Below, one piece after another: positions 1,192-20,204 of a DNA stretch of 30,660 bases. The notes under the pieces are model-generated. The model saw only the letters and a program-made list of their open reading frames with translations, was not told where the DNA came from and did no database searches. Source of the DNA: an uncultured Myxococcales bacterium (GTDB lineage: Bacteria > Myxococcota_A > Polyangia > Fen-1088); assembly GCA_964616265.1 (NCBI GenBank), contig CAZTTW010000002.1:1-30660 (forward strand), in the 5' to 3' direction. Every line of letters begins with the position of its first letter. Position 1 is the first letter of the stretch. Both the position numbers and the translations under genes were made by a program.

Positions 1192-2757
1192 CTACCCGGC
1201 GGCCCCGTCCATCAGCACCATCCCCGCCACCATGTCTACCGAGATTTGCTCCAGAGCTCGTCTGACCGTGCGGCTGTGCACGCCGGAGCGAACGACCATC
1301 ACCACTGCATCCACGGAGTCATGGATAATCGAAATGTCGCCGCTTTGGAGTATGGACGGCCCATCGACTACGACGTAGTCAAAGGCGCAGCGCCAGCGCG
1401 CAATGGATGCCGAGAAGGTTGGACCGTGAAGACCTTCGCCACCGATGGCATCCGGCGCCACGGCTAGAACGTGCAAAGCGGTGGGCCGCAGCTCCGTGGT
1501 CAGCCATGGAGCATCGATCTGTTCCCGGTGGGCAGCCATCTGTGCGTCAAAAGAGCGCACTTGTCGAAGCCCAAAAATCTCCGCCAGCCTCGGGCGACGC
1601 AGGTTAGCCTCGACCAGCAGAACACTGAGGCGACCCGACTCGGCCAAGGCCAGCGCAAGATTGGCAGCACACGTGGTCTTTCCTTCGCCGTCCTGCGCAC
1701 TCGTCACTAGGATCGCACGCGGATCCTTCTGCTCCGCGAGTCGCCGCCGCAAAGCTCGAAACGCGGCTGCTCGTTCGGTGCTCCCATCCATCAGCATGGG
1801 CAGGTCGAGCTCGTCAGTATCCGAAAGCGCGAACGGGGTTGCCTCTATCCGCGCCGGAACCACCCGGTAGTTTGCAGCGAGCACCGCAGGCCGCGCCGAG
1901 CGCAGGGTTGTTGATGGTACTGGTCTTGCTGTCCCAACCGAAATAGCTGTACCCATCGTCGATACAACCGAAGGCGAAGACGCTGGAGACGATACCGCCG
2001 TCGGAATCGATTTCTGAACCGGAATGCCTGAGGCCACAGCCCCGGCACGCGCTCGCACTGCTTCGAGCATCGACCCATCTAGCAGGATGGTCTTTGAGCT
2101 GCCGCTTCCATCCACTTCCTTGTCTTTTGCTGGCGTGGCCGGCTTTGGAGCAGGCTGCGCCGCGGGAGGATCAGGGGATTCTCGACGAATCGCCGGCGTC
2201 ATAGTCCGGACCGGAGCGGACGAGTCGACGGCAACGGTCACCACGGTCGATGGATTTGCTGGTGTGGCCGATCGAGGCATCGTCGCGCGACCGGGTACAG
2301 ATGCGGCCGACGGACCAGACGGCGTCAGGGTCCGCGCCGGCTCAGCTGGGACTGGCACCGCAGCCACTTGGATCGAAGATGGGTTTGATGGAGCCGACGG
2401 CGTCATGGTTCGCGTCAGCGGAAGCGGGCGCCCTCCGGGTGCCGGTGCGCCCGTGGGTGGAGCCACCGAGGGTGGACTTGACGGCGTGACAGTCCGCACC
2501 GGCGCGTCCGATGGCTTGGCTGCAGGCGAGGAATAGGCGGGAGTAGCAGTTCGCACCGGAGGCGATGCTCCCGGTCCCCGCAGACCTGAAAGCGAAGTGG
2601 TCCCTACGCCTTCGGACCCGGACCGAGGCTTCGATGGAGTCGACCCGATGGCTCCACGCGAAGGCACGTCCGGAAGCGACTGGATCACCTTGGAAGAGGC
2701 GGAGCCGGTCGACACGTTCGGGTGCAAGCGCGGATCTTCGATCTTGGGATCAGCCAT
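1192..2757 (-). CDS. Stand-alone CpsD/CapB (BY-kinase-like, probably pseudokinase) ATPase with ~310-aa Pro/Ser/Thr/Ala-rich N-terminal extension
   Basis: C-terminal ~200 aa has AFRALRRRL, Walker A SAQDGEGKTT, A'-like LLVEANLRRP, Walker B FDYVVVDGPS and VDAVVMVVR, as in BY-kinases. No TM segment and no C-terminal Tyr cluster. Confidence 0.88.
   Translation of the reverse strand: MADPKIEDPRLHPNVSTGSASSKVIQSLPDVPSRGAIGSTPSKPRSGSEGVGTTSLSGLRGPGASPPVRTATPAYSSPAAKPSDAPVRTVTPSSPPSVAPPTGAPAPGGRPLPLTRTMTPSAPSNPSSIQVAAVPVPAEPARTLTPSGPSAASVPGRATMPRSATPANPSTVVTVAVDSSAPVRTMTPAIRRESPDPPAAQPAPKPATPAKDKEVDGSGSSKTILLDGSMLEAVRARAGAVASGIPVQKSIPTAVSSPASSPSVVSTMGTAISVGTARPVPSTTLRSARPAVLAANYRVVPARIEATPFALSDTDELDLPMLMDGSTERAAAFRALRRRLAEQKDPRAILVTSAQDGEGKTTCAANLALALAESGRLSVLLVEANLRRPRLAEIFGLRQVRSFDAQMAAHREQIDAPWLTTELRPTALHVLAVAPDAIGGEGLHGPTFSASIARWRCAFDYVVVDGPSILQSGDISIIHDSVDAVVMVVRSGVHSRTVRRALEQISVDMVAGMVLMDGAAG
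2194..2553 (-). repeat. Six dispersed R-[TS]-x-T-P peptide repeats in the disordered N-terminus
   Basis: PVRTATP (R69), PVRTVTP (R88), LTRTMTP (R116), PARTLTP (R142), MPRSATP (R162), PVRTMTP (R184); spacing 19-28 aa. Confidence 0.85.
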
Positions 2758-2937
2758 GTTGTCGGGTCTCGTACTTCGATAAGTTCAGCCATGCTCGACC
2801 GGCCGCAGACCTCGTCAACCGAGGAATGCGCGGCCTTAGGTTAGCATGTCCAAGAATAGCGCATGTTCGAACACGCAACCGTTCTAGAAGAGCTAGCCTT
2901 CCGAAGCTGCCGCGCTACGGACGAGAGACTCGGCTCG

Positions 2938-3249
2938 TCATCGAGCCACCTCACGGATGAGAACCCTGTCAAGATGCAGCAAGCGGAGGATGGCCAGAGG
3001 TTGATCGCGAACGCCATCCACGACCAGATTGCCTCCGTATGCACGGACCACCTTGAACAAAGCCACGATCGCTCCCACGCCCGAGCTGTCGATCAGACGG
3101 AGGCGGGAAAGGTCGACGACCATCTTCGGCGGCCTCTCTTCGCCTACCTGGCTGATGAGCGGTCTGAGCTCGACAACCGAGAGCGCGTCTAGCTCACCTT
3201 CGATAACAAGTACGGAAACGCCATTCTGTGTGCTGAGATGAAAGTGCAT
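2938..3249 (-). CDS. STAS-domain anti-sigma-factor antagonist (RsbV/SpoIIAA-like)
   Basis: VLVIEGELDA...MVVDLSRLRLIDSSGVGAIV with the conserved phospho-acceptor DSSG motif; ~103 aa from ATG 3249 (ORF track extends to 3261). Confidence 0.93.
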   Translation of the reverse strand: MHFHLSTQNGVSVLVIEGELDALSVVELRPLISQVGEERPPKMVVDLSRLRLIDSSGVGAIVALFKVVRAYGGNLVVDGVRDQPLAILRLLHLDRVLIREVAR

Positions 3250-3273
3250 GTTAATAGTCAATAAGAAGAAGCA

Positions 3274-3777
3274 CTAGCTCGCCTTGCCTTCGGTCAGACC
3301 GACGCGATTGGGCCCGTTCCCATCGTCTCCGTCAAGCCGTTTCACAAGTGTAAGAATGTTGGGCGGGCCAGCAGTATATGAAACTTCGTCAACGAACGAT
3401 CGCATGATAAAGACACCAAGGCCCGACTCCGGAAGAGCCTCCAAGTCAGGCGGTGGTGCTTGGAATGGGTCGAAGCTGGCGCCCAAATCACTGATTGTAA
3501 TCCGCATCCAGTCAAAGCTGCTTTCGATCTGCATCCTAACCGATCCGATCTCTCGGCCAGCGTAGCCATGCAAAACGATGTTGTTGTATGCTTCGCCGAT
3601 GGCGGACACCATATGTGCGGTGAACTCAGAGCAGCGCGATGCGTGACTGCGACTATCAGGAATCATCAATTTGCAAGCGGAAGACACTGTGCGCAACACC
3701 ACGTCTCTATATTCGATTCTCCCTGGTACTTCCAGGCGGATGATGTTGCAGCCGTTCGCGCGGGTGAATTCAATCAT
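3274..3777 (-). CDS. RsbW/SpoIIAB-like anti-sigma factor Ser kinase (HATPase_c)
   Basis: N-box AIGEAYNNIVLHGY, G1 ITISDLGASFDP, G2 ESGLGVFIMRSFVDEVSY; ATG 3777 preferred over TTG 3807. Confidence 0.92.
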   Translation of the reverse strand: MIEFTRANGCNIIRLEVPGRIEYRDVVLRTVSSACKLMIPDSRSHASRCSEFTAHMVSAIGEAYNNIVLHGYAGREIGSVRMQIESSFDWMRITISDLGASFDPFQAPPPDLEALPESGLGVFIMRSFVDEVSYTAGPPNILTLVKRLDGDDGNGPNRVGLTEGKAS

Positions 3778-3822
3778 CGTTTCCACTGCCCCGGGACGCC
3801 CTAACAACGAGTTCGCGCAGCC

Positions 3823-4551
3823 GTGAGGACGTCAGTTCGGATTGCCAAGCGGGCATTTGACCTTCTCGCCGCAAGCATTGGGCTGGCGGTGACAGCTCCA
3901 TTATATCCCATAATCGCTGCGTTAATCTACCGAGAGTCTCCTGGTGATGTGTTCTTCAGGCAGCGCCGAGCGGGTCGCCTGCTGGGTCCCGACCCTCGCT
4001 CGCTTCACCATTTTCGTTTCCAAGAGTTCAACATCATCAAGTTCCGCACGATGAAGCTGGACGCTGAAGCCAAGACAGGCGCCGTGATTGCGGCTGAGAA
4101 CGATGACCGAGTCCTCCGAATCGGAAGCTTTCTCCGCCGTACGCGCCTGGACGAGCTTCCTCAGCTTTGGAACGTACTGCGTGGTGATATGAGCCTGGTC
4201 GGACCGCGTCCAGAGCGGCCCGAGTTGATCGGGAACCTTGCACTGGCCATACCCTTCTTCGAGGAGCGGATGCGCGGTGTCAGGCCGGGGCTGACGGGGC
4301 TGGCCCAGGTATCGCTGGGCTACACAGGACGACCGCGTCCCAACAGCAAAATCGAGGCGTACATGAGTTCCCTCACGAACCCGTTCAAAGTGGAGGGTAC
4401 CGAGGGCGCCCTGGCGGATGACATGCGCATCAAGGCGCTCTACGACTTTGCCTACGGCGCAGCCATTGAAGACTTCTTCTCGTTTGTCCGCATGGAAGCG
4501 TGGATCCTTTGGCAAACGCCGTTGGCCGTGCTCAGGAGAACAGGGCGCTGA
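3823..4551 (+). CDS. Small monotopic phosphoglycosyl transferase (Bac_transf sugar transferase, priming enzyme)
   Basis: KRAFDL...FFRQRRAG...IKFRTM...RIGSFLRRTRLDELPQLWNVLRGDMSLVGPRPERP...PGLTGLAQV; catalytic DE dyad intact. Confidence 0.95.
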   Translation: MRTSVRIAKRAFDLLAASIGLAVTAPLYPIIAALIYRESPGDVFFRQRRAGRLLGPDPRSLHHFRFQEFNIIKFRTMKLDAEAKTGAVIAAENDDRVLRIGSFLRRTRLDELPQLWNVLRGDMSLVGPRPERPELIGNLALAIPFFEERMRGVRPGLTGLAQVSLGYTGRPRPNSKIEAYMSSLTNPFKVEGTEGALADDMRIKALYDFAYGAAIEDFFSFVRMEAWILWQTPLAVLRRTGR

Positions 4552-4560
4552 GCTGAGCGC

Positions 4561-5823
4561 CTAGAAGCGCGCGGGGTACTGCGCCTCGACCGTGAACACC
4601 ACCAACTGGCGACGAAATGAGGCGAACGGCGAGGCGCCGACGGCAGAAGATACGGCGGATGCACGTTGGTCGCGAAAGGTGTAGTCGAGGCCATAGGTAA
4701 ACAGGTGTCCCGGCATCCAGCGCAGTCCGAGGTGAGTCGCAAAGACCTTGGCGGTGCCTCCCGCTCCGTTGGCGAGGGCCGAGGCGGAGTCGCTTTCCAA
4801 ATCCGCGGCTGCGAGAAACTGCAGCAGCTCGTACCGATCAAGCGGGAGAGCGATATTTAGGCCGACGAGACTGCGTTGATAGACCGTAGCAACGTAGATA
4901 CTGTCGCCTACGGATTGTTCCGCGCGTAGCCCGACCTCGCGTCCAACACGCCGCCAGAGAATGGCTGCGGATTCTGTTGGAAACACATGCACGTGATCTG
5001 TTCGTAGGAAGAGCACGCCTGCGGCTAGCTCGTGTGTGAGCTCTGCGGTCCACTCGTGTCTCCAGGTCGACTCCAACTGGGCAAACTGGCCGTCGCGGGC
5101 TGCGGTCGTGGCCTGTCCCGCCGTCGTGGGCTGTCCCGCCGTGGTGAGCTGTCCTGCCTGTGTGTTGTTGGTCGCGATGGCGCCCAATCGACCTCGCAGA
5201 CCGCCCGAGTCGCGCTGCCACAGGTGACTGATCGCGGCGCCCAGGATGAGACTTTTGTTCGAGCCCGATCCCTGGTCGCTGCCGAGCGGGCGATACATCC
5301 CGCCATCGAGGGACTGGGCGATGCTCCACGATCCGCCGAGTTGCCAGGAAAAAGCCTCGTCCGCGCTAAGAGACAAGAATTTCTGATCCCCGGCGGGACG
5401 AGGCCCAACCGTCTGCGGATTGGTGGTCGAAGTAGCGTCCAGCATCGACAGCTGCATCAACGCGGCGGATCCCCTCAGAGTGATTCGCGCCGCCGGGCTG
5501 GCCTCGATATCACTCGACAGGCTCAGCGTTTGCGCAAGAACGGAGCTTTGTGTATTCCCCGTCCACGAGGTAGCCATAATGGCATAGGCGATCTGTTCTT
5601 GGGTCAGTCGGCCGATATGACCCAACTCAAGGCGTCCTTGGGCCGTCACAAACCCAGCGGCCGAATGGGCCGTCGCATCCGGCTGCGACGTCGGATTGTC
5701 GCTTGCGCCGACCGAGCTACCCGCAAAGACATGGTACGCAACTTCGGCATGTCCGAAACGTGCCATCCCAAGCAGGATCACGATGAAGGCTGCACTCGGC
5801 AGGGAGGGAAAGCGTCCCATCAT
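4561..5823 (-). CDS. Probable outer-membrane beta-barrel, EpsX/Wzp-like OPX partner
   Basis: Signal peptide MMGRFPSLPSAAFIVILLGMARFGHA|EVA; many amphipathic alternating beta-strand-like segments; ends RQLVVFTVEAQYPARF with terminal Phe; lies in an EPS locus with a short OPX. ORF track start 5865 is probably too long. Confidence 0.68.
   Translation of the reverse strand: MMGRFPSLPSAAFIVILLGMARFGHAEVAYHVFAGSSVGASDNPTSQPDATAHSAAGFVTAQGRLELGHIGRLTQEQIAYAIMATSWTGNTQSSVLAQTLSLSSDIEASPAARITLRGSAALMQLSMLDATSTTNPQTVGPRPAGDQKFLSLSADEAFSWQLGGSWSIAQSLDGGMYRPLGSDQGSGSNKSLILGAAISHLWQRDSGGLRGRLGAIATNNTQAGQLTTAGQPTTAGQATTAARDGQFAQLESTWRHEWTAELTHELAAGVLFLRTDHVHVFPTESAAILWRRVGREVGLRAEQSVGDSIYVATVYQRSLVGLNIALPLDRYELLQFLAAADLESDSASALANGAGGTAKVFATHLGLRWMPGHLFTYGLDYTFRDQRASAVSSAVGASPFASFRRQLVVFTVEAQYPARF
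5102..5155. repeat. 3 x 18-bp imperfect in-frame tandem repeat (AGQxTT x3) inside the barrel gene
   Basis: GCGGTCGTGGCCTGTCCC / GCCGTCGTGGGCTGTCCC / GCCGTGGTGAGCTGTCCT; protein reads AGQLTTAGQPTTAGQATT. Confidence 0.9.
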
Positions 5824-5922
5824 AGGAGGTGCGAACCATAACACGAAGGGACCACGCCACAGCATACTGCCGGCGCAGACGTGCGAGCCAACGGTCGCGC
5901 AGGCCGCTCTCCAGCGAATGCG

Positions 5923-7146
5923 TCAGCGCCAATCGAAACGATAGCGTTCAATTTGAAGGTTCTTCTTCAGCCGTTGACGGGGCATCAGGTAGAGCGACGA
6001 CGCGTCTTCGTTGGCGCGATCGATGGTCAGAGTGCCAGTAAAAGGCTCGCCGCTCGGGTCGGCCTCGTAGTCAATAGAGAGCGCCCGGACCCAGTGTCGG
6101 CCATCGCGCGAGGCCAGAACGGACATTCGTTTCGGCGGTGAGTACTTCTTGGTAAACGTGGTTTCTGGCTCGTAGGCCGTCGCCATGGTGATCGTGCCGT
6201 CGGCCAGGGACGCCGTGTACCAAATAGGGTTCTCCGTTTCGAATACTGCCTCTCGGGTGCTTCGCTGGAAATCGTAGCGGTAGATGTGGCTGGGTTCGAC
6301 ATTGTCCCACGTGCCCCAGTACAAGGCGTCCTTCGTCGGCAGGACATCCATTGTGCGCCAGGTGTAGTCTCCGCCACCGAGCAATTGAAGGGTCTTGAAG
6401 TCGTCGTCTGTATAGGAGATCTGAGAGACTTTGGCGTCGCAGCCCGTCGTAACCCACAGTCGATTCCGATAGCGATCGAACGTTACGGCATGCACGTGAA
6501 GCGACACTCCCGGGGGGTAGGTATAGGCAACGTCCCATTTCCGTCCGTCATCGGTGCCACGCCAAATCTGCCAGCGTCGCGGTGGCGTTTCAAAGATGAA
6601 CTCTCCATAGTAGACCTTGTCGTCGTCGGCAACGGCCGCTGCGTGCGAATACGGGCCGGGGCTGTCGAGGGACAAGGCCTGTACCAGTTCGAAGCTGGCG
6701 CCACCGTCGGTAGAGCGATAGATGCCATCGAAATACATGACAAGGATTGTCCCCGATTTGAGGCGATTCAGGCCGTCCGCGCCCTCGCGCTGGAGAACGG
6801 GAGCCAGCAGGCGCGACGACGTCACCAGACGCTTCGTCTTGGCGACGAGGGAGCTCCCGCTGTACGCGCCTACCGGGACGAGCTCGCTCGCGTCGTGTGA
6901 AGCGGCATAAAGGTTGCGGCCTTGAGCCGCGTAAAGGAGATCCTTCGTGATGCCCGTAATGTCGGCTCCCTCGAGGGTCCCCGTATGCGTCACTTCCAGC
7001 TCGGGGGAAGAGGTGACAACGTTGGACCGTGCTGTCCAGCCCAGGCGGGGAGGGCCAAGAACGATCGTTATCGCAGCGCCGACTGCCAAGAGCGCCAGCG
7101 CAAGCCCGACGACGAAGAAACGGACCTTTCCGGGATACTTGCTCAT
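5923..7146 (-). CDS. Membrane-anchored BNR/Asp-box beta-propeller protein (sialidase-like fold, putative glycoside hydrolase)
   Basis: N-terminal TM (FFVVGLALALLAVGAAITIVLG); Asp-box-like repeats YRSTDGGASF, WRGTDDGRKW, SYTDDDFKTL, LASRDGRHW. Confidence 0.75.
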   Translation of the reverse strand: MSKYPGKVRFFVVGLALALLAVGAAITIVLGPPRLGWTARSNVVTSSPELEVTHTGTLEGADITGITKDLLYAAQGRNLYAASHDASELVPVGAYSGSSLVAKTKRLVTSSRLLAPVLQREGADGLNRLKSGTILVMYFDGIYRSTDGGASFELVQALSLDSPGPYSHAAAVADDDKVYYGEFIFETPPRRWQIWRGTDDGRKWDVAYTYPPGVSLHVHAVTFDRYRNRLWVTTGCDAKVSQISYTDDDFKTLQLLGGGDYTWRTMDVLPTKDALYWGTWDNVEPSHIYRYDFQRSTREAVFETENPIWYTASLADGTITMATAYEPETTFTKKYSPPKRMSVLASRDGRHWVRALSIDYEADPSGEPFTGTLTIDRANEDASSLYLMPRQRLKKNLQIERYRFDWR

Positions 7147-7185
7147 TCTTGTTGACTCCGGCGCTCGGGCAAAATTCCTGTCACT

Positions 7186-8283
7186 CTAAACCGTTGCGGA
7201 GCGCATCTTCTTTTCCAGGCGCTCGCGCAACCGCAGGATGGGTTTCTCGACAAGATGGTAACTCACGGTAGCGGCCGCGAATGCGAGGCCGATGTTCACC
7301 GGAAACGTGGTGAACCAGCGCGTGTGGTACCGGCACAGGAAGAGTTGCTGCCAAAGGTACAGCGAGTAGGACACCACCCCGACCCAGACCAACGGCCAAC
7401 TGTTTAGAAGTCTCCCGATCGGCGATTCATGAAATCGGATCGACCAGTCGACGCACATGGCAACCCCCACGTTGACAACGGTCCGCCCGGCCAGCAACGA
7501 CAGGCCGACGCTCGGGACGAGGGTGTGGCTGGCCACGACGATCAGCGGGACGAGCACGAACCACGGTGACTCGAGAATCGCCCGGTATCGGTCGTTGTCC
7601 CACAGCCGCTGCCGGAGGATGGCGAGGACACAACCCGTGGCGAGCGCGTCGAAGACGAACGGGAACCCCTGATCGACCAGCGGGCGCTGGGCAGGCCAAA
7701 AGTAGTAGAGCGTCACGCGGAACAACGGCGCCGCGAGCATCGCGCCTACCGAGATCCGAAGGCCGCCCGCGACCCCAAGGTAGGCCACCGCTGCGGGCCA
7801 TAGCAGATAGAATTGCTCCTCTACAGCGAGCGACCAGGTATGGCCCAGCCACCAGGTGTGGTCGGCGCGGAAATTCATTGTGTATGTCGCCGCGGCCAGA
7901 ACGTCCGCGTGACTGAGCTGCACCCGCACCTGCTCGTTCGCGCCCGCCAGAATGCCCATCGCTCCGAGAGCGACAACGACTGCTAGGAAGACGTACATCG
8001 CCGGAAAGATCCGCAGCGTGCGCCGGAAGTAGAACATTTTCAGAGAGATGGTCCCCGCGCGGTCTTTCTCCTTCAATAGAAGGCCGGTGATGAGGTAGCC
8101 AGAGATCACGAAGAACACCGTGACGCCCAATGCTCCCCACGCGAACGGCAGCCATTGCACGGGAAGGCCCGCCGTGCCGAGCAAATGGCCGAGCAGCACC
8201 ATCACGATGGAAATGGCCCGAAGTCCGTCGAGCGACGGGATTCGTTTCGAAGCGCCGTCCTTCAGCAAAGCGCGAGGGCCCAT
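7186..8283 (-). CDS. Acyltransferase family 3 (OafA/NodX-like O-acyltransferase, AT3 domain only)
   Basis: RIPSLDGLRAIS, GVTVFFVISGYLIT, FYFRRTLRIFP, HTWSLAVEEQFYLLWP, SYSLYLWQ; polytopic; no fused SGNH domain. Confidence 0.95.
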   Translation of the reverse strand: MGPRALLKDGASKRIPSLDGLRAISIVMVLLGHLLGTAGLPVQWLPFAWGALGVTVFFVISGYLITGLLLKEKDRAGTISLKMFYFRRTLRIFPAMYVFLAVVVALGAMGILAGANEQVRVQLSHADVLAAATYTMNFRADHTWWLGHTWSLAVEEQFYLLWPAAVAYLGVAGGLRISVGAMLAAPLFRVTLYYFWPAQRPLVDQGFPFVFDALATGCVLAILRQRLWDNDRYRAILESPWFVLVPLIVVASHTLVPSVGLSLLAGRTVVNVGVAMCVDWSIRFHESPIGRLLNSWPLVWVGVVSYSLYLWQQLFLCRYHTRWFTTFPVNIGLAFAAATVSYHLVEKPILRLRERLEKKMRSATV

Positions 8284-8488
8284 CGTGCTCGTGACCAGCG
8301 GTCGCTAGCCGGCAATGGCCGTCCTCCGTTGGGAGGGAAAACACGGGAGGAGTTGGCGGGTGCCACGAGGCGCGAGTCTTAGCACGGGACCCGAACCAAG
8401 ATGATCGAAAGCGCCCCGAATCACGACGAGCGGTCGTGCGCGTGGCGCATTTTTTTGTTCATTTTGATGACGAAAGGCCTGTGGTACC

Positions 8489-9859: not shown

Positions 9860-9860
9860 G

Positions 9861-11004: not shown

Positions 11005-11136
11005 CGAATGGGCGTTGACCCGGTGGAACTGCAAGTTCTACAGGCCTGACTTCCGGATCTTCTCAGTCAGCGATCGACTGAGCGTCGTCGATGTCGCCGG
11101 AACAACCGTGTGAAAGTAAGATATACTCGCGTCGTC

Positions 11137-14540: not shown

Positions 14541-14951
14541 CGGGGATGGCGGCAAGCAAGTCATGACAGTCCCCTGGCAATCGCAGCCGAGCACAGATTG
14601 AGACCGGTAACGACAAAACGAGTCAGGTTAGTCATCTTTGGGCGCCTTGGACCGGGGTAGAAGGCCGTACGCTTGGGCAGCCTACAGCCTGGCCTTGGAT
14701 GGTCTGAATAGTCAGGCTCGCACGGGCGGCCCATACCTTACTACCTTTGCACAACTAAGCAACCCGCACTGTCGAGGACAGCGGTAGTGAAGGCGCACTC
14801 GCATCCTTGGCTCATCCTCCCGCATTCGTCCGACGCAAGATCATGGCGGCGGCTCCACGGACAAAGTGCTGAAAGCGCGATAGCGCGACCTTATCCGAGT
14901 GGCGCGCTGGAGACTGGCCAAGTGCGACCATCCGCTGTAGATTCGCCGGCC

Positions 14952-16448
14952 TTGACGTCCGGTTCCCCACTCAAGCGTCTCCTTGTCCACGTCTCCCACT
15001 ACTCGTTGGCCAGCCTGCTGACGACGGTTGCCGGAGTCATCTCGTTTCCGTTCATGACTCGGGTCTTCAGCGTCGCTGAGTACGGGACCATCAACCTCAT
15101 TGCGGCGACCTTGACGTTGGCAGTCGCCGTCGGCAAAGTAGGCGTCCAGCACTCGGTGATCCGCTACCACAGTGAAATCGCGAGCGGGAAGCGGATCTTC
15201 AGTCTCGACCAACTCTATTCGACAACGCTCATCGGTATGGGGGCAACCGGGCTCGCCATGGGCGTCCTCCTCCTGGCCGCCACTCTCTTCGGCCCCGATC
15301 GTTGGTTCCATGCCATTCCCAACCTGCGCCTCTACTTTGCCATCAGCTCGGTGGTGTGCATGTCCCAGGTCCTCGAGAGCGTGGTCATCAATTTGGTCCG
15401 CGCCAAGCAGCTCACCACGCTGCTCATGGTGTACCAGGTCGTCAAGCGCTACGCGATGCTCGGCCTCGTCGTGGTCGGCGTACTGTTCGTCGCGCGGAGC
15501 CTCACGTCCTTCTACGCCGCCATGGTCTTCACCGAAGTCACGGCCATGCTGGTGCTCGCGCTCCACTTCTTTCGCAAACACGTCGACGCTCCCCTCAAGG
15601 CTTCCAGCTTCTCGTCGCCGCTCTATACCGAGCTACTTCGGTTTGGCATCCCCATGATGGTCGGTTACGAGCTCTCCGGCATCATCCTCTCGGTAGGCGA
15701 CCGCTACGTGATCGAAGGCATGATGGGCGGAGAGTCGCTCGGCCTCTACTCCGCCGCCTACAACCTCTGCGGATACGTCCAATCGGTGGTCATCTCGTCG
15801 GTCGGACAGGCCATCATGCCGATCTACATGCAGATGTGGGATCAGAAGGGGCGCGACGAGACGGCGGCCTTCATCAGCCGGTCACTTCGCACTTACTGCC
15901 TGTTCGCCGCCCCGGTGGTTGCGGGCATCGCCGCCGTCGGGCCCGAGCTTCTGCCGGCGCTCGCGTCCGCCAAGTACGCCAGCGCGGTGACGGTACTGCC
16001 ATGGGTGATCGGCGGCATGGTCCTCGACGGTATGACCGCCATGGTGGGTGCCGGTCTGTTCATTCATCGGAAAACCACCGTCATCGTGAGCATCATCATG
16101 TCGTGTGCGGTGCTCAACATCGGCCTGAACTTCTTGCTCATCCCGCCACTCGGCGTGGTCGGCGCCGCGATCGCGACGTTGGCTGCCTACGCCGCCATGA
16201 CGGTGGCGATGGCGCTCTTCAGCCACCGCTTGCTGCCGGTCCACTTGCCCTGGGCGTCGCTCGCGCGCTCCGGCGCAGCCTCGGCGATCATGTTTGCCGT
16301 CGTGTACTTCGTCTACCCTGGGCACCGGCTTCTCACCGTGGCAGTGCGGGCCATGCTGGGTGCGCTCGTCTACGCCGTGGTGATCGTCGCCATCGACGGG
16401 GACGCGCGGCAGCTCGCGCGTAAGCTGCGCGCGCGCCTCCGGCGCTGA
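14952..16448 (+). CDS. wzx: Wzx oligosaccharide flippase (MOP superfamily)
   Basis: ~12-14 hydrophobic segments; FPFMTRVFSVAEYGTINL, LLRFGIPM, GDRYVI, LGLYSAAYNL, LNIGLNFLLIPPLGVVGAAIAT. Start uncertain (TTG 14952 chosen; ORF track gives GTG 14787). Confidence 0.93.
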   Translation: MTSGSPLKRLLVHVSHYSLASLLTTVAGVISFPFMTRVFSVAEYGTINLIAATLTLAVAVGKVGVQHSVIRYHSEIASGKRIFSLDQLYSTTLIGMGATGLAMGVLLLAATLFGPDRWFHAIPNLRLYFAISSVVCMSQVLESVVINLVRAKQLTTLLMVYQVVKRYAMLGLVVVGVLFVARSLTSFYAAMVFTEVTAMLVLALHFFRKHVDAPLKASSFSSPLYTELLRFGIPMMVGYELSGIILSVGDRYVIEGMMGGESLGLYSAAYNLCGYVQSVVISSVGQAIMPIYMQMWDQKGRDETAAFISRSLRTYCLFAAPVVAGIAAVGPELLPALASAKYASAVTVLPWVIGGMVLDGMTAMVGAGLFIHRKTTVIVSIIMSCAVLNIGLNFLLIPPLGVVGAAIATLAAYAAMTVAMALFSHRLLPVHLPWASLARSGAASAIMFAVVYFVYPGHRLLTVAVRAMLGALVYAVVIVAIDGDARQLARKLRARLRR

Positions 16449-16584
16449 GCTGTCCACCGCGCGCGGCCCGAGTAGGGCGCGTGCCCGCGCTCCCACAGAA
16501 GCAACCGAAGTGGCACGTTGGCAAGCATGCCGTCCGGGAGCGCACTGTCCGCGCTGCCCGAAGAGGTCCCTCGGCCGGGCTCGG

Positions 16585-18207
16585 CTAGGTCGGCTTTCGG
16601 AGATAGAAAAACGTCGCGTACACGATGAAGACAACCACTACCAGCGCGCCGGCCATCACGGTGTGCAACCGGCTGCGCCGCTGTTCGCGGGGACTATGCG
16701 CGTGAGGAATGCTGACCAAGATAGGAAGGTTGGAACTCGCCTCGAGCTGGGCGCCGCTGCGGATCCGTCCGTCGAGCATGACAAGCGCGCATACGAGCCC
16801 GACCGGCAAGAGCGCGGCCACGAGTAGACCGATCAGGAGGATGTGAAGGAGGCGAATGCTCACCGGCGTCGTGGGCAACTCGGGCGGCTCCTGAACTTGC
16901 AAGCGAAGTCCGCGCTGCTCTGCCAGCTCCAAGGCGACACGCTGTTGCTCGCGGCGCTTGAGCAGCTCCTGATAGATATCTCGCGTCGCCTCGTAGCTAC
17001 GCAGAAGCTCGGCTATGGCCGCATCCTGCCGGACTCGCATATCCGGATCCGGTATGTTGCCGGGGACACCCGGGGTCAACCGCGCTCTCGGGTTACTGGG
17101 TGCCGCCGCGATCTCGGGGGGATCCGAGCGGGGACGTTCTCCTGTGACCGCCGCGATCTTCTTTTGGACTTCTTCAAGCCGCGATCGGGTGGCGCGTTTG
17201 ATGTCGTTCTCCATGGCGACGGCCGTCGCCTGGGCGTTCTCCCGCTCAGCCTTCGCCCGCGTGGCGTCGTCCTGGGCGCGCGCCAGCTCGCCGCGGAGCC
17301 TCTTCACGTCCGGGTGCTCATCGGTGTAGCTGGCGAGGAGTCGGTTGAGCTCGCCCTGGAGCTGCACGACTCGCTCGCGGTACCGGTTTTCTGTCTGTAC
17401 CAGGTCCGCAGAGACCGAGCTGCGAGTACGACCCAACTCTGCAGTGAGCGCGGCCTCCTCCTGGCGAAGATCTGCCAGCTCGTCAGAGGAGACTCGGCTT
17501 GCGCGTGGCGGCGACGTGCCACTCGACGTGTCGCTCGCGAGAGCGCGGATCGTGGGCGAGTGTCGGTGGACGGCACGTGGCATCTCGCTGCTCGGCCCGG
17601 GCAAGCTCACCTCGTGGGCGCGGTCGTAGGCCAACACCTGGTCGTGGATGGTCGCGAGCGTCTTAGAGTATTCCTTGACCTGACCGTCGACGAATTCGAA
17701 GTTGAAACGGCTTGTACTCTCCTCAGGGAGGACACTCTCCCGGATGTAGATATCGGTGAGCTTCTTAGCAAGCTCAAGAGCGCGCTGCGGCTGGGAATCG
17801 GAATAGGTGAGCGTGACGAGAGTGGGTCCGGTTGGGCCCGCCCCCGAACTGCTGATCGCGATGCGCGAGCGGAGCTGCGCGAGGAGCCGCTCCTCGGCTC
17901 GCGGATCCGACTGTGCCCCCCAGCCGCCCAGGGCTGCCAGTTCCCGGAGAATCCTCTTGCTCGTGATGATCTGGTTGACCAACGTGGAGTGGGGGGCCTC
18001 GGCCGTTCCCGTCCCGGGAGCGATGGTGCTTCTCGGCTCGACCAGAATTGTCGAGGAAGCGGAGTACTTCTTCGGCCAGTAGAAACCGACGCCCAGGGTC
18101 GCGAGGGCGGCAACGCAAAACAGCGAGGCGAGCGTAAGAATTCGCACCCGCCCCTCTTTGAGGACGAGTGCGAGGAACTCCTGTATGGGGACGGACTGTT
18201 GCGCCAT
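16585..18207 (-). CDS. wzc: Wzc/GumC-like polysaccharide co-polymerase without fused kinase domain
   Basis: TM1 followed by WPKKYSASSTILVE; long coiled-coil periplasmic region with YTDEHPDVKRL; TM2 followed by LDGRIRSGAQLEASSNLPILVSIP; extra C-terminal hydrophobic helix. Confidence 0.9.
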   Translation of the reverse strand: MAQQSVPIQEFLALVLKEGRVRILTLASLFCVAALATLGVGFYWPKKYSASSTILVEPRSTIAPGTGTAEAPHSTLVNQIITSKRILRELAALGGWGAQSDPRAEERLLAQLRSRIAISSSGAGPTGPTLVTLTYSDSQPQRALELAKKLTDIYIRESVLPEESTSRFNFEFVDGQVKEYSKTLATIHDQVLAYDRAHEVSLPGPSSEMPRAVHRHSPTIRALASDTSSGTSPPRASRVSSDELADLRQEEAALTAELGRTRSSVSADLVQTENRYRERVVQLQGELNRLLASYTDEHPDVKRLRGELARAQDDATRAKAERENAQATAVAMENDIKRATRSRLEEVQKKIAAVTGERPRSDPPEIAAAPSNPRARLTPGVPGNIPDPDMRVRQDAAIAELLRSYEATRDIYQELLKRREQQRVALELAEQRGLRLQVQEPPELPTTPVSIRLLHILLIGLLVAALLPVGLVCALVMLDGRIRSGAQLEASSNLPILVSIPHAHSPREQRRSRLHTVMAGALVVVVFIVYATFFYLRKPT

Positions 18208-18314
18208 CTGGCAATCGCGGCAATAGACTATAGATCACATCTTGAATCTTGGCATCCGACCTCCGCCCAATACCGGCAGCTCCACCTAAGCTCGGTCTTC
18301 GACCAGGTTGACAT

Positions 18315-18330
18315 CTCCAAGGCTCCAAGG
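18315..18330. repeat. 8-bp perfect tandem repeat CTCCAAGG x2 just beyond the 3' end of the second AT3 gene
   Basis: ctccaagg ctccaagg at 18315-18322 and 18323-18330. Confidence 0.8.
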
Positions 18331-18344
18331 CATGCGACTCGTGC

Positions 18345-19439
18345 TCAGTGGCGAGCCGCGCCACTGCTGATCCAACGTCGCATCGGAGTTTCAAACCAAC
18401 GGAATGACGCCGAGGCGAAGGCGATTACAGCGATGAAGTTGACCGCGACGCCCAGCCAGAGACTACCACTGCGCTGCTCGACGAGACGCTGCGCGGTGTA
18501 TCCCACTAACCCGTGGAAGAGGTAGATGCCATACGATATTTGGCCGACATGGACTGCGAAGCGGTTCCCAAGTAGACGCGCAACGAAGCCCTCACCGTTC
18601 GACGCAACGACCGTGATCAGGACAAGCATGGCGATCATCGGGGGCTCGACCACGAAGACGAAGCCATACCTGAACGCGGTACCGAACGAATCCATCGCAG
18701 GCAAGGCGAGGACCATCGCCACCAGCAGCAGCCCGAGGCCTGGTACACGCAACACCGCCGCCAGCCGCGTCCGCCAGACGGAAGACCGCACGAGACAAGC
18801 CAGCAAACAACCCGTTGCTAGTTCATCGGCTCGCGTCTCGAGCGCCCGATAAAGATAGTGGAACGACGCATCGGTACACGCGAGCAAGAACCACCGCCAG
18901 CACCACACGGCGAGCACAATGAGCGCCAAGGCTCGCGCGACGTTCGCCTTTCGTCGCAGGAGGAAGGAGGCAAGCATGGGCCATAGCAGGTAAAACTGCT
19001 CTTCGACCGACAGAGACCAGCAATGCGAGACTAGGTTGGTTTGAGCTCCCGTAAAGGCCTGATAGTAGTTCGTGACGTAAAGTACCGACGACAATATCGC
19101 CGCCCAGGGAACGGTGTGACGCCTGAGCAAGGCCACGCCAATCCCCGTGCCGATGAAGAGATAGAAGGCCGGCATTAGGCGGGCAATCCGACGCCGGTAG
19201 AAGCCGAGGAAATCGATGCGGCCGCTCGCCGCGAATTCATCGAGCAGCAGCCGGCTAATCAAGAACCCCGACAGCACGAGGAATATTTTCACTCCCAGTC
19301 CGGCGAGCCCCGGAAGCAACGCGAAATGCCCTTCGGTCGCGTGGCCCCACATGACGAACAGGACCGCCATCGCGCGCAAGAAGTCCAGTCCCCCAATGCG
19401 CGGAGAGCAAACCGCGGCTTCGATAGCGGCAGCGTCCAT
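18345..19439 (-). CDS. Second acyltransferase family 3 (AT3-only O-acyltransferase)
   Basis: RIGGLDFLRAMAV, GVKIFLVLSGFLIS, FYRRRIARLMP, HCWSLSVEEQFYLLWP, ISYGIYLFH; ATG 19439 preferred over 19511. Confidence 0.95.
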   Translation of the reverse strand: MDAAAIEAAVCSPRIGGLDFLRAMAVLFVMWGHATEGHFALLPGLAGLGVKIFLVLSGFLISRLLLDEFAASGRIDFLGFYRRRIARLMPAFYLFIGTGIGVALLRRHTVPWAAILSSVLYVTNYYQAFTGAQTNLVSHCWSLSVEEQFYLLWPMLASFLLRRKANVARALALIVLAVWCWRWFLLACTDASFHYLYRALETRADELATGCLLACLVRSSVWRTRLAAVLRVPGLGLLLVAMVLALPAMDSFGTAFRYGFVFVVEPPMIAMLVLITVVASNGEGFVARLLGNRFAVHVGQISYGIYLFHGLVGYTAQRLVEQRSGSLWLGVAVNFIAVIAFASASFRWFETPMRRWISSGAARH

Positions 19440-19582
19440 TGCTTGCCAACGAAGTGGAGCGCGCACGGACTTCTTGTTCGGGAGGGAGCGGGAGCTGAGT
19501 ACTGTCTGCATGCGAACCCTTGAGATGCCAACGATGCTAACGAATGTCAGCTTTTCTCTTAGGGGACGCTAGCGCTGTCGCG

Positions 19583-19624
19583 AGAGTCTCAAGGCTCAGG
19601 CAAGAGTCTCAAGCGCTCAGGGCA
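19583..19624. repeat. Imperfect ~20-22 bp tandem duplication that includes the OPX stop codon
   Basis: AGAGTCTCAAGGCTCAGGCA (19583-19602) followed by AGAGTCTCAAGCGCTCAGGGCA (19603-19624). Confidence 0.8.
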
Positions 19625-20204
19625 GATAGACAGTGTCGCCCGCGACGATGACGAGATTCATCTCGGGACGCTTGCCACTGTAGATTGCGGCCAGGTCGAT
19701 GGGGATGCGACGGGTCCCGCCGGACGTGTTACGGATGAGCACAACGTTGGAAAGAGAGGCGAAGCGATTCGGCCCCCCGGCCATAGCGAGGGCCTCGGTA
19801 ACCGTCACAAAACGGTGCGAGGAGAACATTCCCTGATGTTCGGCGTTGCCCATTACCGTGAACTGGTAGCTGTTGACTTCGGACACGGCCACCGAGACTT
19901 GGACCGAGTCATCCTTGACGTAGGATTTGAGACGCGTCTCGATCTGGCTACGCAACGCTGAGGTCGTGCGTCCAGCAGCGGCCAAGTCACCGATGAGGGG
20001 CATGGTCAGGGTGCCGTCCGGTCGAACTCTGGCGTCGATGGACAGGTCGGGCATGTGCCACACGTTGATGCGCACCATATCTGCTACCCCGACCACGAAC
20101 TCCTTCAGACGTGGATCTGGCTCGCTGGCGTAGTCGAAGACCTGGTTGCTTGCGCATCCGAAAGCGGCCAGCAGCGCAGTCCAGAGAATCAAGTGTCGAG
20201 GCAC
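19617..20204 (-). CDS. wza: Short OPX (Wza-like) polysaccharide export lipoprotein, Poly_export + one SLBB domain, no C-terminal outer-membrane helix
   Basis: GTG 20204, lipobox LLAAFG-C; FVVGVADMVRINVW...VRPDGTLTMPLIGDLAAAGRT; VMGNAEHQG...EALAMAGG; ends NLVIVAGDTVYLP*. ORF track start 20411 is too long. Confidence 0.92.
   Translation of the reverse strand: MPRHLILWTALLAAFGCASNQVFDYASEPDPRLKEFVVGVADMVRINVWHMPDLSIDARVRPDGTLTMPLIGDLAAAGRTTSALRSQIETRLKSYVKDDSVQVSVAVSEVNSYQFTVMGNAEHQGMFSSHRFVTVTEALAMAGGPNRFASLSNVVLIRNTSGGTRRIPIDLAAIYSGKRPEMNLVIVAGDTVYLP

What the first reader, a model, noticed from the sequence alone, without database searches (positions are those of the whole stretch)
1192..20204. 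EPS export system with a split co-polymerase/pseudokinase, a composite OPX/beta-barrel translocon and its own partner-switching module
Seen: kinase-less PCP (16585-18207), short OPX (19617-20204), barrel-like protein (4561-5823), stand-alone degenerate BY-kinase (1192-2757), and an RsbW-like kinase plus STAS gene co-oriented directly upstream of it. Known: Myxococcus xanthus EPS uses EpsV (PCP), EcpK (BY pseudokinase), EpsY (short OPX) and EpsX (barrel); Vibrio fischeri syp uses a STAS protein (SypA) controlled by an RsbW-type kinase (SypE). Inference: this locus combines both designs, possibly a phosphorylation-gated export machine in which STAS state and the repeat-bearing pseudokinase control polymerisation or secretion. 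I do not recall this combination being described, but could not search.
Basis: partly seen in the sequence, partly recalled or inferred. Interest (0 to 1): 0.82.

Follow-up and report, generated by a model that had tools for sequence, protein, structure and literature searches.

The report
Polysaccharide export locus with phospho-switch
This is a myxobacterial gene cluster for making and exporting a surface polysaccharide; it carries a small kinase/STAS switch that is conserved next to the pathway's first enzyme in related genomes, so the switch probably turns synthesis on and off at the protein level, as reported in Vibrio and cyanobacteria.

Summary
- a PCP with no kinase domain
- a 195-aa lipoprotein OPX with D1 and D2 only
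- an outer-membrane barrel with 18 predicted strands
- a stand-alone BY-kinase-fold protein with an intact Walker A, a broken Walker A' (ExN) and no C-terminal tyrosines
- an RsbW-type kinase and a STAS gene directly upstream of it

The kinase/STAS pair is not an accident of this window. In 45 related Myxococcota loci, STAS follows the kinase in 40. The small phosphoglycosyl transferase (PGT) lies next to the pair on the opposite strand in 32 of 43. PP2C phosphatases, PCPs and tyrosine-less BYK-like genes often follow downstream.

The combination is not unprecedented: published annotation of the Vibrio syp locus lists comparable parts. The evidence also points to initiation rather than export as the controlled step. 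The PGT is the most constant neighbour, and a natural STAS–PGT fusion is among the PGT's closest relatives. This mirrors Anabaena All4160 with HenR and Alr3423.

Verdict: a real feature, and a new, split myxobacterial variant of a known regulatory idea. The target is inferred, not shown. Interest is moderate.

The parts
791..864 (-). tRNA-Phe(GAA). Together with tRNA-Arg it marks the left edge of the polysaccharide locus.
   Evidence: ARAGORN; Rfam tRNA, 69.7 bits. A DsbA-like gene beyond it runs off the left end of the window.
1068..1143 (+). tRNA-Arg(TCG), at the locus boundary.
1192..2757 (-). Stand-alone BY-kinase-fold protein, 521 aa. The first ~320 aa are disordered, rich in P, S, A and T, and carry five RTxTP motifs. 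The C-terminal P-loop domain has an intact Walker A, a degenerate Walker A' (ExN) and no tyrosine cluster.
   Evidence: The long ORF is real: its N-terminus M(A/S)DPKIQD and the repeats are conserved in L001, L004 and L005, and an independent caller also gives 521 aa.
2938..3249 (-). Single-domain STAS protein, 103 aa. The predicted phospho-acceptor is the Ser directly after Asp in LIDSSGVG (Ser59 in the 107-aa ORF numbering).
   Evidence: Pfam STAS 5e-15. TIGR00377 is above its cut-off. PDB relatives are TM1442 and SpoIIAA. The motif is invariant in orthologues.
3274..3777 (-). RsbW/SpoIIAB-type GHKL serine kinase, 167 aa, a single domain.
   Evidence: HATPase_c_2 3e-20. The best PDB match is B. 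subtilis RsbW, with the N, G1 and G2 boxes aligned. These residues are invariant across orthologues.
3823..4551 (+). Small monotopic phosphoglycosyl transferase (Bac_transf, 242 aa), the initiating enzyme. It is divergent from the kinase gene, with about 45 bp between the start codons.
   Evidence: Bac_transf 8e-48. One N-terminal hydrophobic helix and an RLDELPQ motif. It is 55-92% identical in 32/43 related loci at the same position. The STAS-PGT fusion P0171 is 42% identical over the full length.
4561..5823 (-). Outer-membrane beta-barrel, 420 aa, with 18 predicted strands. It is the candidate partner of the short OPX.
   Evidence: AF2: pLDDT 80.1, pTM 0.74, signal helix plus 18 strands. 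Foldseek finds only OM barrels. The protein ends in ...YPARF. It matches no Pfam or NCBIfam family.
5923..7146 (-). Membrane-anchored protein of 407 aa with a weak BNR/sortilin-like match. Role unknown.
7186..8283 (-). Acyl_transf_3 membrane O-acyltransferase.
8534..9859 (+). UDP-glucose/GDP-mannose dehydrogenase (supplies a uronic-acid precursor).
9837..10661 (+). Predicted lipoprotein of 274 aa with a weak GDSL/SGNH match.
11110..12198 (+). GT2 glycosyltransferase.
12306..14594 (-). Secreted or anchored protein of 762 aa that matches no family. Its repeat composition suggests a beta-helix.
14787..16448 (+). Wzx-type flippase (Polysacc_synt).
   Evidence: The weak best NCBIfam match is HfsF.
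16585..18207 (-). PCP-2-type co-polymerase with no kinase domain, 540 aa. After TM2 it carries a CapA/Wzc-like linker and then a third TM.
   Evidence: Wzz and GNVR, both below cut-off. TIGR03007 at 200.8 bits over nearly its full length, below the cut-off of 278.9. Aligns to PslE and Wzc around TM2. Hydropathy analysis.
18345..19511 (-). Second Acyl_transf_3 O-acyltransferase.
19617..20204 (-). Short OPX lipoprotein, 195 aa, with D1 (PES) and one SLBB (D2). It has no domain that could span the outer membrane.
   Evidence: Poly_export 2e-20 plus SLBB. Lipobox. TIGR03027 at 119.8 bits and EpsY at 78.8 bits, both below cut-off.
20486..22552 (-). Secreted lipoprotein-like protein of 688 aa, Gly-rich at the N-terminus, matching no family.
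22901..24073 (-). GT4 glycosyltransferase.
24107..24805 (-). Polysaccharide deacetylase (NodB fold).
24806..26326 (-). Conserved protein of unknown function ('u506'). In relatives it recurs next to STAS, the PGT, the OPX or the barrel.
   Evidence: No Pfam, NCBIfam or PDB match. It is 36-44% identical in at least 18 related loci.
26364..27737 (-). GT4 glycosyltransferase.
27820..29085 (-). FemAB-like GNAT (Acetyltransf_6).
29513..30499 (-). SAM-dependent methyltransferase.

Best explanation
The window holds most of a Wzx/Wzy-type pathway for a secreted polysaccharide from an uncultured Myxococcota bacterium.

The pathway parts:
- A small monotopic PGT starts the repeat unit on the lipid carrier.
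- GT2 and GT4 transferases, acyl-, acetyl- and methyl-transferases and a deacetylase build and decorate it.
- Wzx flips it across the inner membrane.
- A kinase-less PCP works with a cytoplasmic BY-kinase-fold protein. That protein can probably still bind ATP (Walker A and B are kept) but cannot autophosphorylate on tyrosine.
- A D1D2 OPX lipoprotein and an 18-strand barrel form the outer-membrane exit.

The regulatory layer is a partner-switching-like phospho-switch. The RsbW-type kinase phosphorylates the STAS protein on the serine of its DSSG motif. A PP2C phosphatase removes the phosphate. In relatives that phosphatase is encoded next to the module; in this genome it must lie elsewhere.

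The STAS protein, not a sigma factor, is the output, as with SypA. The most likely scheme is that unphosphorylated STAS binds the small PGT encoded back-to-back with the module and permits initiation, while phospho-STAS does not. This would be a split form of the cyanobacterial STAS-PGT fusion enzymes.

Shown here: gene identities, motifs, folds, conserved synteny, and the existence of a closely related STAS-PGT fusion. Inferred: that phosphorylation occurs, its direction of effect, and the PGT as the binding partner.
For: Parts.

The module belongs to the pathway. In 45 Myxococcota loci found with the kinase:
- STAS is adjacent in 40/45.
- The orthologous small PGT (55-92% identical) is adjacent and divergent in 32/43.
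- A PP2C lies within 3 kb downstream in 14/38.
- At least one EPS gene is present in 21/26 complete loci.

Pfam-annotated contexts from metagenomes agree.

Catalytic competence: the kinase N, G1 and G2 boxes and the STAS DSSG motif are invariant.

A non-sigma output is plausible:
- No sigma-factor domain appears in seven Pfam-annotated contexts.
- A rough tblastn with sigma queries found none in the window or in 40 of the 45 kinase-anchored loci.

The PGT as target:
- It is the most constant neighbour. Among 26 complete loci, 7 have the PGT but no BYK-like gene and only 2 the reverse.
- P0171, a natural STAS+Bac_transf fusion, ranks 32nd of 54,289 relatives of this PGT. It aligns over the full length at 42% identity, and its STAS domain aligns to the window STAS.

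Published precedents:
[quoted passage not shown] It is switched by the kinase Alr3423 and the SpoIIE phosphatase HenR (PMC13555669).
- M. xanthus EpsW activates the PGT EpsZ by direct binding (PMC12802240).
- SypA is the downstream partner of SypE and acts below transcription (PMC10120452).
Against: - No interaction was tested. No multimer modelling was possible with these tools.
- The window itself has no PP2C gene.
- In this window and its closest relatives the BYK-like gene, not the PGT, is co-oriented with kinase-STAS. The wider conserved order is kinase-STAS-(PP2C)-(PCP)-BYK-like, which fits a PCP/BYK target equally well.
- Synteny among related genomes partly reflects shared ancestry.
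- Only one STAS-PGT fusion was found among the ten N-terminally extended PGT relatives checked. It comes from an unrelated genome of 46.5% GC with no kinase nearby.
- Some paralogous kinase-STAS pairs have no adjacent PGT (L009, L010, L015, L032).
Confidence: 0.45

Rival explanations
1. The STAS/kinase switch acts on the polymerisation and export scaffold. STAS, or the kinase-like protein, binds the tyrosine-less BYK-like ATPase or the PCP tail. That would gate PCP oligomerisation, and so polymerisation or secretion, in place of the missing tyrosine-phosphorylation cycle.
For: - Kinase, STAS and BYK-like genes are co-oriented and adjacent in the window, L005 and L006.
- More distant loci keep the order kinase-STAS-(PP2C or a ~340-aa ORF)-PCP-BYK-like.
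- Every BYK-like protein near a module (25 of 25) lacks the tyrosine tail and the DxD motif, so something other than autophosphorylation must control it.
- The PCP keeps the post-TM2 linker that aligns to the same segment of PslE and Wzc. In CapA this segment contacts the kinase domain (from memory).
Against: - BYK-like linkage is looser than PGT linkage: 14/26 against 19/26 complete loci, and 7 loci have the PGT but no BYK-like gene.
- No STAS-BYK fusion was seen.
- The fusion evidence points to the PGT.
- The published pseudokinases EcpK and HfsB are proposed to work by constitutive scaffolding, with no dedicated switch.
Confidence: 0.25
2. This is a classical partner-switching system. The RsbW-like protein is an anti-sigma factor, unphosphorylated STAS releases a sigma factor encoded elsewhere, and that sigma factor transcribes the divergent PGT and export operons.
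For: - The best family and structure matches are RsbW, SpoIIAB, SpoIIAA and TM1442.
- The module sits at a very short divergent intergenic region, the place where transcriptional control would act.
- One sub-clade (L028, L029, L037, L038, L048) has an ECF-sigma-like ORF 5-9 kb downstream.
Against: - No sigma gene is present in the window or in the annotated contexts of close relatives.
- ECF sigma factors are normally held by their own anti-sigma factors rather than by RsbW-type kinases (general knowledge).
- The intergenic sequence is poorly conserved.
- In the polysaccharide-linked precedents (SypA, All4160) the STAS side is the output.
Confidence: 0.15
3. The kinase/STAS pair is a passenger regulator with no role in this polysaccharide pathway, and its position is historical accident.
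For: Some paralogous pairs lie away from any PGT (L009, L010, L015, L041, L043).
Against: - The adjacency persists while kinase identity falls to 32-50% across orders of Myxococcota.
- Even the copies without a PGT sit among glycosyltransferase, beta-helix and BYK-like genes.
Confidence: 0.05

Closest known systems
Vibrio fischeri syp locus: SypA (STAS) and SypE (kinase-REC-PP2C)
   Same: - A STAS protein and an RsbW-type serine kinase are encoded inside a polysaccharide locus. By published annotation that locus also holds a stand-alone P-loop 'capsular synthesis / partitioning ATPase' (sypD), an OPX (sypC) and a Bac_transf-type sugar transferase (sypR).
- STAS is the downstream, active partner and works below transcription.
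   Different: - SypE is a single three-domain protein, and an RscS/SypF phosphorelay controls its activity through the REC domain. Here the kinase is a separate 167-aa protein, and the phosphatases are separate genes (PP2C alone or FHA-GAF-PP2C) that are absent from this window.
- SypA's target is still unknown.
Anabaena PCC 7120 All4160 / HenR / Alr3423, and the related STAS-Bac_transf fusions such as XssP
   Same: - An RsbW-type kinase and a SpoIIE/PP2C phosphatase set the phospho-state of a STAS domain, and that domain directly controls a polysaccharide biosynthetic enzyme rather than a sigma factor.
- A fusion of this kind (P0171) is among the closest relatives of the window PGT.
   Different: - There, STAS is fused to the enzyme. 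The paper calls such fusions widely conserved in cyanobacteria and rarely found outside that lineage.
- Here STAS is a separate gene divergent from the PGT, in Myxococcota.
- The genes are clustered here but dispersed in Anabaena.
Myxococcus xanthus EPS pathway: EpsZ/EpsW, EpsV/EcpK, EpsY/EpsX
   Same: - The overall design matches: Wzx/Wzy type, a kinase-less PCP with a stand-alone tyrosine-less BYK-fold partner, and a D1D2 OPX lipoprotein with an 18-strand barrel.
- The initiating PGT is regulated after translation by a small phospho-switch protein (EpsW).
   Different: - EcpK lacks all Walker motifs and ends in a basic helix. This protein keeps Walker A and B and ends in a beta-strand.
- EpsZ is a large monoPGT regulated by a receiver-domain protein. 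Here a small monoPGT is paired with STAS.
- The EpsY model scores 78.8 bits against a cut-off of 320.
- The barrel and OPX genes are 14 kb apart in this window.
XrtA/PEP-CTERM-associated export set (TIGR03007, TIGR03018, TIGR03027)
   Same: These are the best-scoring NCBIfam models for the PCP, the BYK-like protein and the OPX. The PCP match runs nearly full length and includes the third TM.
   Different: - All scores are below the curated cut-offs.
- The Pfam scans of the window's ORFs reported no exosortase family.
Caulobacter HfsA/HfsB
   Same: A kinase-less PCP-2 with a stand-alone BY pseudokinase that lacks the tyrosine tail. The Wzx here has HfsF as its best, weak, NCBIfam match.
   Different: No partner-switching module is reported for hfs, and no sequence-level test was done here.

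Membership tests
Bacterial tyrosine kinase (BYK; CapB / Wzc C-terminal domain) | P-loop fold of the Wzc/CapB type | tested here: met
   phmmer against PDB: VpsO 7e-12, then BceF, CapAB, Etk and Wzc. AF2 pLDDT 90.5. The Foldseek top 50 are all BYK domains, with TM 0.66-0.79.
Bacterial tyrosine kinase (BYK; CapB / Wzc C-terminal domain) | Walker A GK[ST] | tested here: met
   SAQDGEGKTT, conserved in most relatives.
Bacterial tyrosine kinase (BYK; CapB / Wzc C-terminal domain) | Walker A' hhhhDxDxR | tested here: not met
   The motif is VLLVEANLR. It aligns to VpsO LLIDCDLRK. ExN or a similar change is present in all family members inspected.
Bacterial tyrosine kinase (BYK; CapB / Wzc C-terminal domain) | C-terminal tyrosine cluster | tested here: not met
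   The last tyrosine is residue 461 of 521, and the tail reads ...MVLMDGAAG. None of 25 locus-linked homologues has a tyrosine in the last 25 residues. Among the 120 database homologues, 5 have a single tyrosine in the last 20 residues and none has a cluster.
EcpK-type BY pseudokinase | All Walker motifs lost, and a basic C-terminal helix | tested here: not met
   Walker A and B are retained. The AF2 model ends in a beta-strand plus 5 residues. The EcpK description is from PMC12004946.
EcpK-type BY pseudokinase | Stand-alone BYK-fold protein without phospho-tyrosine sites, paired with a kinase-less PCP-2 in one pathway | tested here: met
   Physical interaction cannot be tested here.
PCP-2 co-polymerase, bipartite (kinase-less) type | Two TM helices around a large coiled-coil periplasmic domain, with Wzz and GNVR motifs and no cytoplasmic kinase domain | tested here: met
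   TM helices at 20-44 and about 455-482. Wzz and GNVR hits are below cut-off. TIGR03007 scores 200.8 bits against a cut-off of 278.9. The PslE and Wzc alignment ends at the post-TM2 linker. An extra third TM is present.
D1D2 OPX (EpsY-like short OPX) | Lipoprotein signal, PES/Poly_export D1, a single SLBB D2, no D3 or D4 | tested here: met
   The protein is 195 aa.
D1D2 OPX (EpsY-like short OPX) | Scores as an EpsY equivalog (NF041843) | tested here: not met
   78.8 bits against a cut-off of 320. The best model is TIGR03027 at 119.8 bits against 180.
18-strand beta-barrel partner of short OPX (EpsX/Wzp type) | Signal peptide plus an 18-stranded OM barrel | tested here: met
   The AF2 model has 18 strands, with pLDDT 80.
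18-strand beta-barrel partner of short OPX (EpsX/Wzp type) | AlgE-like as the closest solved fold, and sequence homology to EpsX | tested here: inconclusive
   The Foldseek top 50 are TonB-dependent receptors, FadL, OmpG and CymA. AlgE is not listed. No EpsX sequence was available for comparison.
18-strand beta-barrel partner of short OPX (EpsX/Wzp type) | Gene coupled to the OPX gene | tested here: inconclusive
   The two genes are 14 kb apart in the window. In relatives L011, L016 and L051 they are close, in the order barrel-u506-OPX.
Partner-switching system (RsbW/RsbV, SpoIIAB/SpoIIAA) | GHKL serine kinase with N, G1 and G2 boxes, plus a STAS protein with the conserved phospho-serine | tested here: met
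Partner-switching system (RsbW/RsbV, SpoIIAB/SpoIIAA) | Cognate PP2C phosphatase | tested here: inconclusive
   Absent from the window and from the ~5.4 kb of contig to its left. Present within 3 kb in 14/38 related loci.
Partner-switching system (RsbW/RsbV, SpoIIAB/SpoIIAA) | A sigma factor as the sequestered target | tested here: not met
   There is no sigma gene in the window or in annotated relatives. ECF-like ORFs occur in only 5 distant loci. A sigma factor encoded elsewhere cannot be excluded.
STAS-Bac_transf fusion enzymes (All4160 / XssP type) | STAS and PGT in one polypeptide | tested here: not met
   They are separate, divergent genes here. The PGT is nevertheless 42% identical over its full length to a true fusion, P0171.
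SypE/SypA system | Three-domain SypE (kinase-REC-PP2C) | tested here: not met
   The kinase is a single 167-aa domain.

The most novel reading that the evidence does not exclude
The STAS switch couples both ends of the pathway. Unphosphorylated STAS would alternate between the kinase, the initiating PGT and the ATP-bound, tyrosine-less BYK-like scaffold, so that initiation and PCP-driven polymerisation and export start together. In that case serine phosphorylation of a STAS protein would have functionally replaced the tyrosine autophosphorylation cycle of classical BY-kinases. In this lineage the RTxTP repeats of the BYK-like N-terminus could serve as phospho-threonine docking sites for the FHA-GAF-PP2C phosphatases encoded beside the module in relatives.
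Probability: 0.12. Interest if true: 0.75.

Novelty: new variant of a known kind. Interest (0 to 1): 0.48.

Why it matters
How bacteria control costly polysaccharide pathways after transcription is only now becoming clear. The examples so far are EpsW acting on EpsZ in 2025 and All4160/HenR in 2026. The target of Vibrio SypA is still unknown after more than a decade.

These Myxococcota loci show the same logic in separate parts: kinase, STAS, often a phosphatase, the small PGT next door, and a tyrosine-less BYK-like protein downstream. The arrangement is conserved across at least 45 genomes. Combined with the STAS-PGT fusion, it nominates the initiating PGT as a concrete, testable target for stand-alone STAS proteins in polysaccharide loci, possibly including SypA and SypR.

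It also shows that a large myxobacterial group annotated 'CpsD/CapB tyrosine kinase' lacks the kinase signature while keeping the ATP-binding motifs. It is therefore a type of BYK-like protein different from EcpK.

Tried and rejected
- Foldseek of the barrel model did not return AlgE, only generic OM barrels. The similarity to the AlgE fold reported for EpsX could therefore not be reproduced or denied.
- DNA tandem-repeat search of the BYK-like N-terminus found nothing. The repeats exist only at the peptide-motif level and only in the closest relatives, so they cannot explain the widely conserved synteny.
- The promoter and terminator scan of 900-4700 found no more than chance would give. Alignment of the kinase-PGT intergenic region showed no conserved motif.
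- u506 and the two large secreted proteins matched no Pfam, NCBIfam or PDB entry, even at permissive thresholds.
- A linker-fused STAS-PGT AlphaFold run was considered and dropped, because the tool returns no inter-chain contact or PAE data.
- A mirror-tree comparison of STAS against the PGT and against the BYK-like protein was considered and dropped, because shared phylogeny would dominate the signal.
- Exosortase association was considered because of the NCBIfam best hits, and not adopted. All scores are below cut-off, and the Pfam scans reported no exosortase family.
- The homologue search with the kinase found only a tight clade of about 250 proteins and gave no view beyond this lineage.

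Full report
**What is in the window.** The window is about 60% GC. From the two tRNA genes at 791-1143 to its right end it is a single polysaccharide locus. Pfam and NCBIfam scans give the following genes:
- a BY-kinase-like gene, 1192-2757(-)
- STAS, 2938-3249(-)
- an RsbW-type HATPase_c_2 kinase, 3274-3777(-)
- a small Bac_transf PGT, 3823-4551(+)
- a protein matching no family, 4561-5823(-)
- acyltransferases, a UDP-sugar dehydrogenase and GT2/GT4 transferases
- a Wzx flippase, 14787-16448(+)
- a PCP, 16585-18207(-)
- a short OPX, 19617-20204(-)
- a deacetylase, a FemAB-like GNAT and a methyltransferase

No Wzy polymerase was recognised. The source contig (64,488 bp) ends about 86 bp beyond the right end of the window, so Wzy may lie off the contig. 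To the left of the tRNAs the contig encodes DsbA-like and redoxin proteins, not EPS genes and not a phosphatase.

**Checking the observation.**
- *BYK-like protein.* Its C-terminal 200 aa are a BY-kinase fold. The best solved relatives by sequence are VpsO (7e-12), BceF, CapAB, Etk and Wzc. An AlphaFold model (pLDDT 90.5) retrieves only BY-kinase domains in the Foldseek top 50. Walker A (GEGKT) and Walker B (VVVDGPS) are present. Walker A' reads VLLVEANLR where VpsO has LLIDCDLRK. The protein ends ...MVLMDGAAG, with no tyrosine in the last 60 residues.
- *Its N-terminus.* The first ~320 aa are 55% Pro, Ser, Ala and Thr and carry five (P/A)xRTxTP(S/A) motifs. This long N-terminus is real. Its first residues and the repeats are conserved in L001, L004 and L005, where gene callers had truncated the gene. 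Another caller gives 521 aa for the window's own contig.
- *PCP.* It has TM1, a ~410-aa periplasmic region and TM2, then a short cytoplasmic segment, LDGRIRSGAQLEASSNLPILVSIP. That segment aligns to the post-TM2 linker of PslE and Wzc. A third TM follows, and there is no kinase domain.
- *OPX.* Read from GTG 20204 it is a 195-aa lipoprotein with Poly_export and one SLBB domain.
- *Barrel.* The 420-aa protein has only 19 database relatives. It models as a signal helix plus 18 beta-strands, with pLDDT 80.

- *Contexts of BYK-like homologues.* Four of five relatives show HATPase_c_2 plus STAS beside a 242-aa Bac_transf gene. In L006 and L005 a SpoIIE/PP2C gene lies directly after the BYK-like gene.
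- *Genome scan.* A scan of GTDB representative genomes with the kinase alignment returned 45 loci, nearly all titled Myxococcales, Polyangia, Haliangiales, Polyangiaceae or 'delta proteobacterium' MAGs.
- *Neighbours by tblastn with the window's proteins.* The counts are:
  - STAS directly downstream in 40/45
  - the orthologous PGT adjacent and divergent in 32/43 loci with enough upstream sequence
  - a PP2C within 3 kb downstream in 14/38
  - among 26 loci with at least 7 kb on both sides: PGT in 19, BYK-like in 14, OPX in 14, at least one EPS gene in 21
- *Gene order.* The recurrent order is PGT (divergent), then kinase, STAS, a PP2C or a ~340-aa ORF, PCP and BYK-like.
- *Copies without a PGT.* Even these sit among glycosyltransferase, beta-helix and BYK-like genes.
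- *The BYK-like proteins.* Every one near a module lacks the tyrosine tail and the DxD motif. Among the 120 best database homologues none has a tyrosine cluster and E-x-N/S/T predominates, including those annotated 'CpsD/CapB family tyrosine-protein kinase'.

**How it most likely works.** The kinase retains the RsbW N, G1 and G2 boxes, and STAS retains the DSSG serine, both invariantly. Reversible serine phosphorylation of STAS is therefore the reasonable core, although it is inferred. The open question is what the switch controls.

Three observations favour the initiating PGT.
- It is the most constant neighbour. Seven complete loci have the PGT but no BYK-like gene, and only two the reverse.
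- An exhaustive HMMER search with the PGT found 54,289 relatives. [quoted passage not shown] The Bac_transf part aligns to the window PGT over its full length at 42% identity. The STAS part aligns to the window STAS and keeps a DGSG motif. P0171 sits in another Wzx-type polysaccharide locus.
- A 2026 study describes All4160 of Anabaena as a STAS-containing glycosyltransferase that is switched off by the kinase Alr3423 and switched on by the SpoIIE phosphatase HenR. [quoted passage not shown]

The window therefore looks like a split version of that design. M. xanthus supplies a parallel principle: the receiver protein EpsW activates the PGT EpsZ by direct binding.

No sigma-factor gene is linked to the module in the window or its close relatives. 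Only one distant sub-clade shows an ECF-like ORF several kb away.

**What remains open.** The BYK-like gene shares the operon direction with the module, and a tyrosine-less BYK-fold protein that keeps its ATP-binding motifs needs some other form of control. I rank it second at 0.25. A classical anti-sigma role ranks third at 0.15. No protein-protein interaction could be modelled or tested here.

**Comparison with known systems.**
- *Split PCP/pseudokinase and composite OPX/barrel.* Both are published for M. xanthus. This BYK-like protein differs from EcpK, which has lost all Walker motifs and ends in a basic helix.
- *NCBIfam.* The PCP, OPX and BYK-like proteins score best against the XrtA/PEP-CTERM-associated models and below every cut-off. 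EpsY scores 78.8 bits against 320. They are therefore not members of the named equivalog families.
- *Vibrio syp.* Published tables of this locus list sypA (STAS), sypE, sypD (capsular synthesis protein / partitioning ATPase), sypC (OPX) and sypR (sugar transferase). SypA is the downstream partner, and its target is still unknown. The 'combination' is therefore not unprecedented. I could not compare Syp sequences directly.
- *Literature searches.* Full-text searches combining STAS with partner-switching, exopolysaccharide, Myxococc- or phosphoglycosyl transferase found no description of this myxobacterial arrangement.

**Verdict.** The feature is a real, conserved regulatory add-on to a Wzx/Wzy pathway. 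It is best described as a new, split, gene-clustered myxobacterial variant of the STAS-based control of polysaccharide synthesis known from Vibrio and cyanobacteria. Its value lies in nominating the small PGT, and secondarily the BYK-like scaffold, as the target of stand-alone STAS proteins. Interest is moderate (0.48), because each component and the general principle are already published and the mechanism here is inferred.

Noticed in passing
window 24806-26326 (-): A conserved protein of unknown function ('u506') with no Pfam, NCBIfam or PDB match. Homologues 36-44% identical occur in at least 18 related loci. They often lie directly beside STAS (L018-L020), beside the kinase gene (L006), or between the barrel and OPX genes (L011, L016, L051).
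   Followed up: partly
window 12306-14594 (-) and 20486-22552 (-): Two large secreted or lipoprotein-like proteins (762 and 688 aa) with Gly-rich N-termini and a repeat composition suggesting beta-helix. They match no family. They may be polysaccharide-modifying or -degrading enzymes.
   Followed up: partly
window 1-30660; source contig ena:ERZ27245619 k141_1048305: No Wzy polymerase is recognisable in the window. The contig ends about 86 bp beyond the window's right end, so the locus is probably truncated by the assembly.
   Followed up: partly
window 1-745 (-), 791-864, 1068-1143: A DsbA-like thioredoxin-fold gene runs off the left end; on the contig it is an 868-aa multi-DsbA protein. Two tRNA genes, Phe-GAA and Arg-TCG, separate it from the EPS locus.
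   Followed up: yes
L028, L029, L037, L038, L048 (BYK-like genes about 2.3-4.7 kb downstream of the kinase): In this sub-clade the BYK-like protein has also lost the Walker A lysine (EGTTT) and carries a CxxC...CxxC insertion resembling a zinc ribbon. The same loci have an ECF-sigma-like ORF 5-9 kb downstream of the kinase.
   Followed up: partly
L007/L009, L008/L010, L013/L016/L022: Single MAGs carry two or three kinase-STAS pairs. Copies not beside a PGT are preceded or followed by an FHA-GAF-PP2C phosphatase and lie among other polysaccharide genes.
   Followed up: partly
L002 / L003 10767-13143: An IS21 element (istA/istB) is inserted between the PCP and the BYK-like gene of a related locus. 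The BYK-like gene lies on the opposite strand there.
   Followed up: no
L055 8001-9041 (NCBI GCA_029979945.1, 46.5% GC): A natural STAS-Bac_transf fusion protein (P0171) lies inside a Wzx-type polysaccharide locus of an unidentified organism, with no RsbW-type kinase within 8 kb.
   Followed up: partly
window 16585-16680 (PCP residues 511-539): The PCP has a third, C-terminal transmembrane helix after the cytoplasmic linker. The TIGR03007 model covers this helix as well.
   Followed up: no
window 1860-2757 (BYK-like residues 1-300); L001, L004, L005: Besides the RTxTP repeats, a short motif KT(I/M)LLDGSMLEAVRARA is conserved inside the otherwise disordered N-terminus, and is duplicated in L001. 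It may be a docking helix.
   Followed up: no
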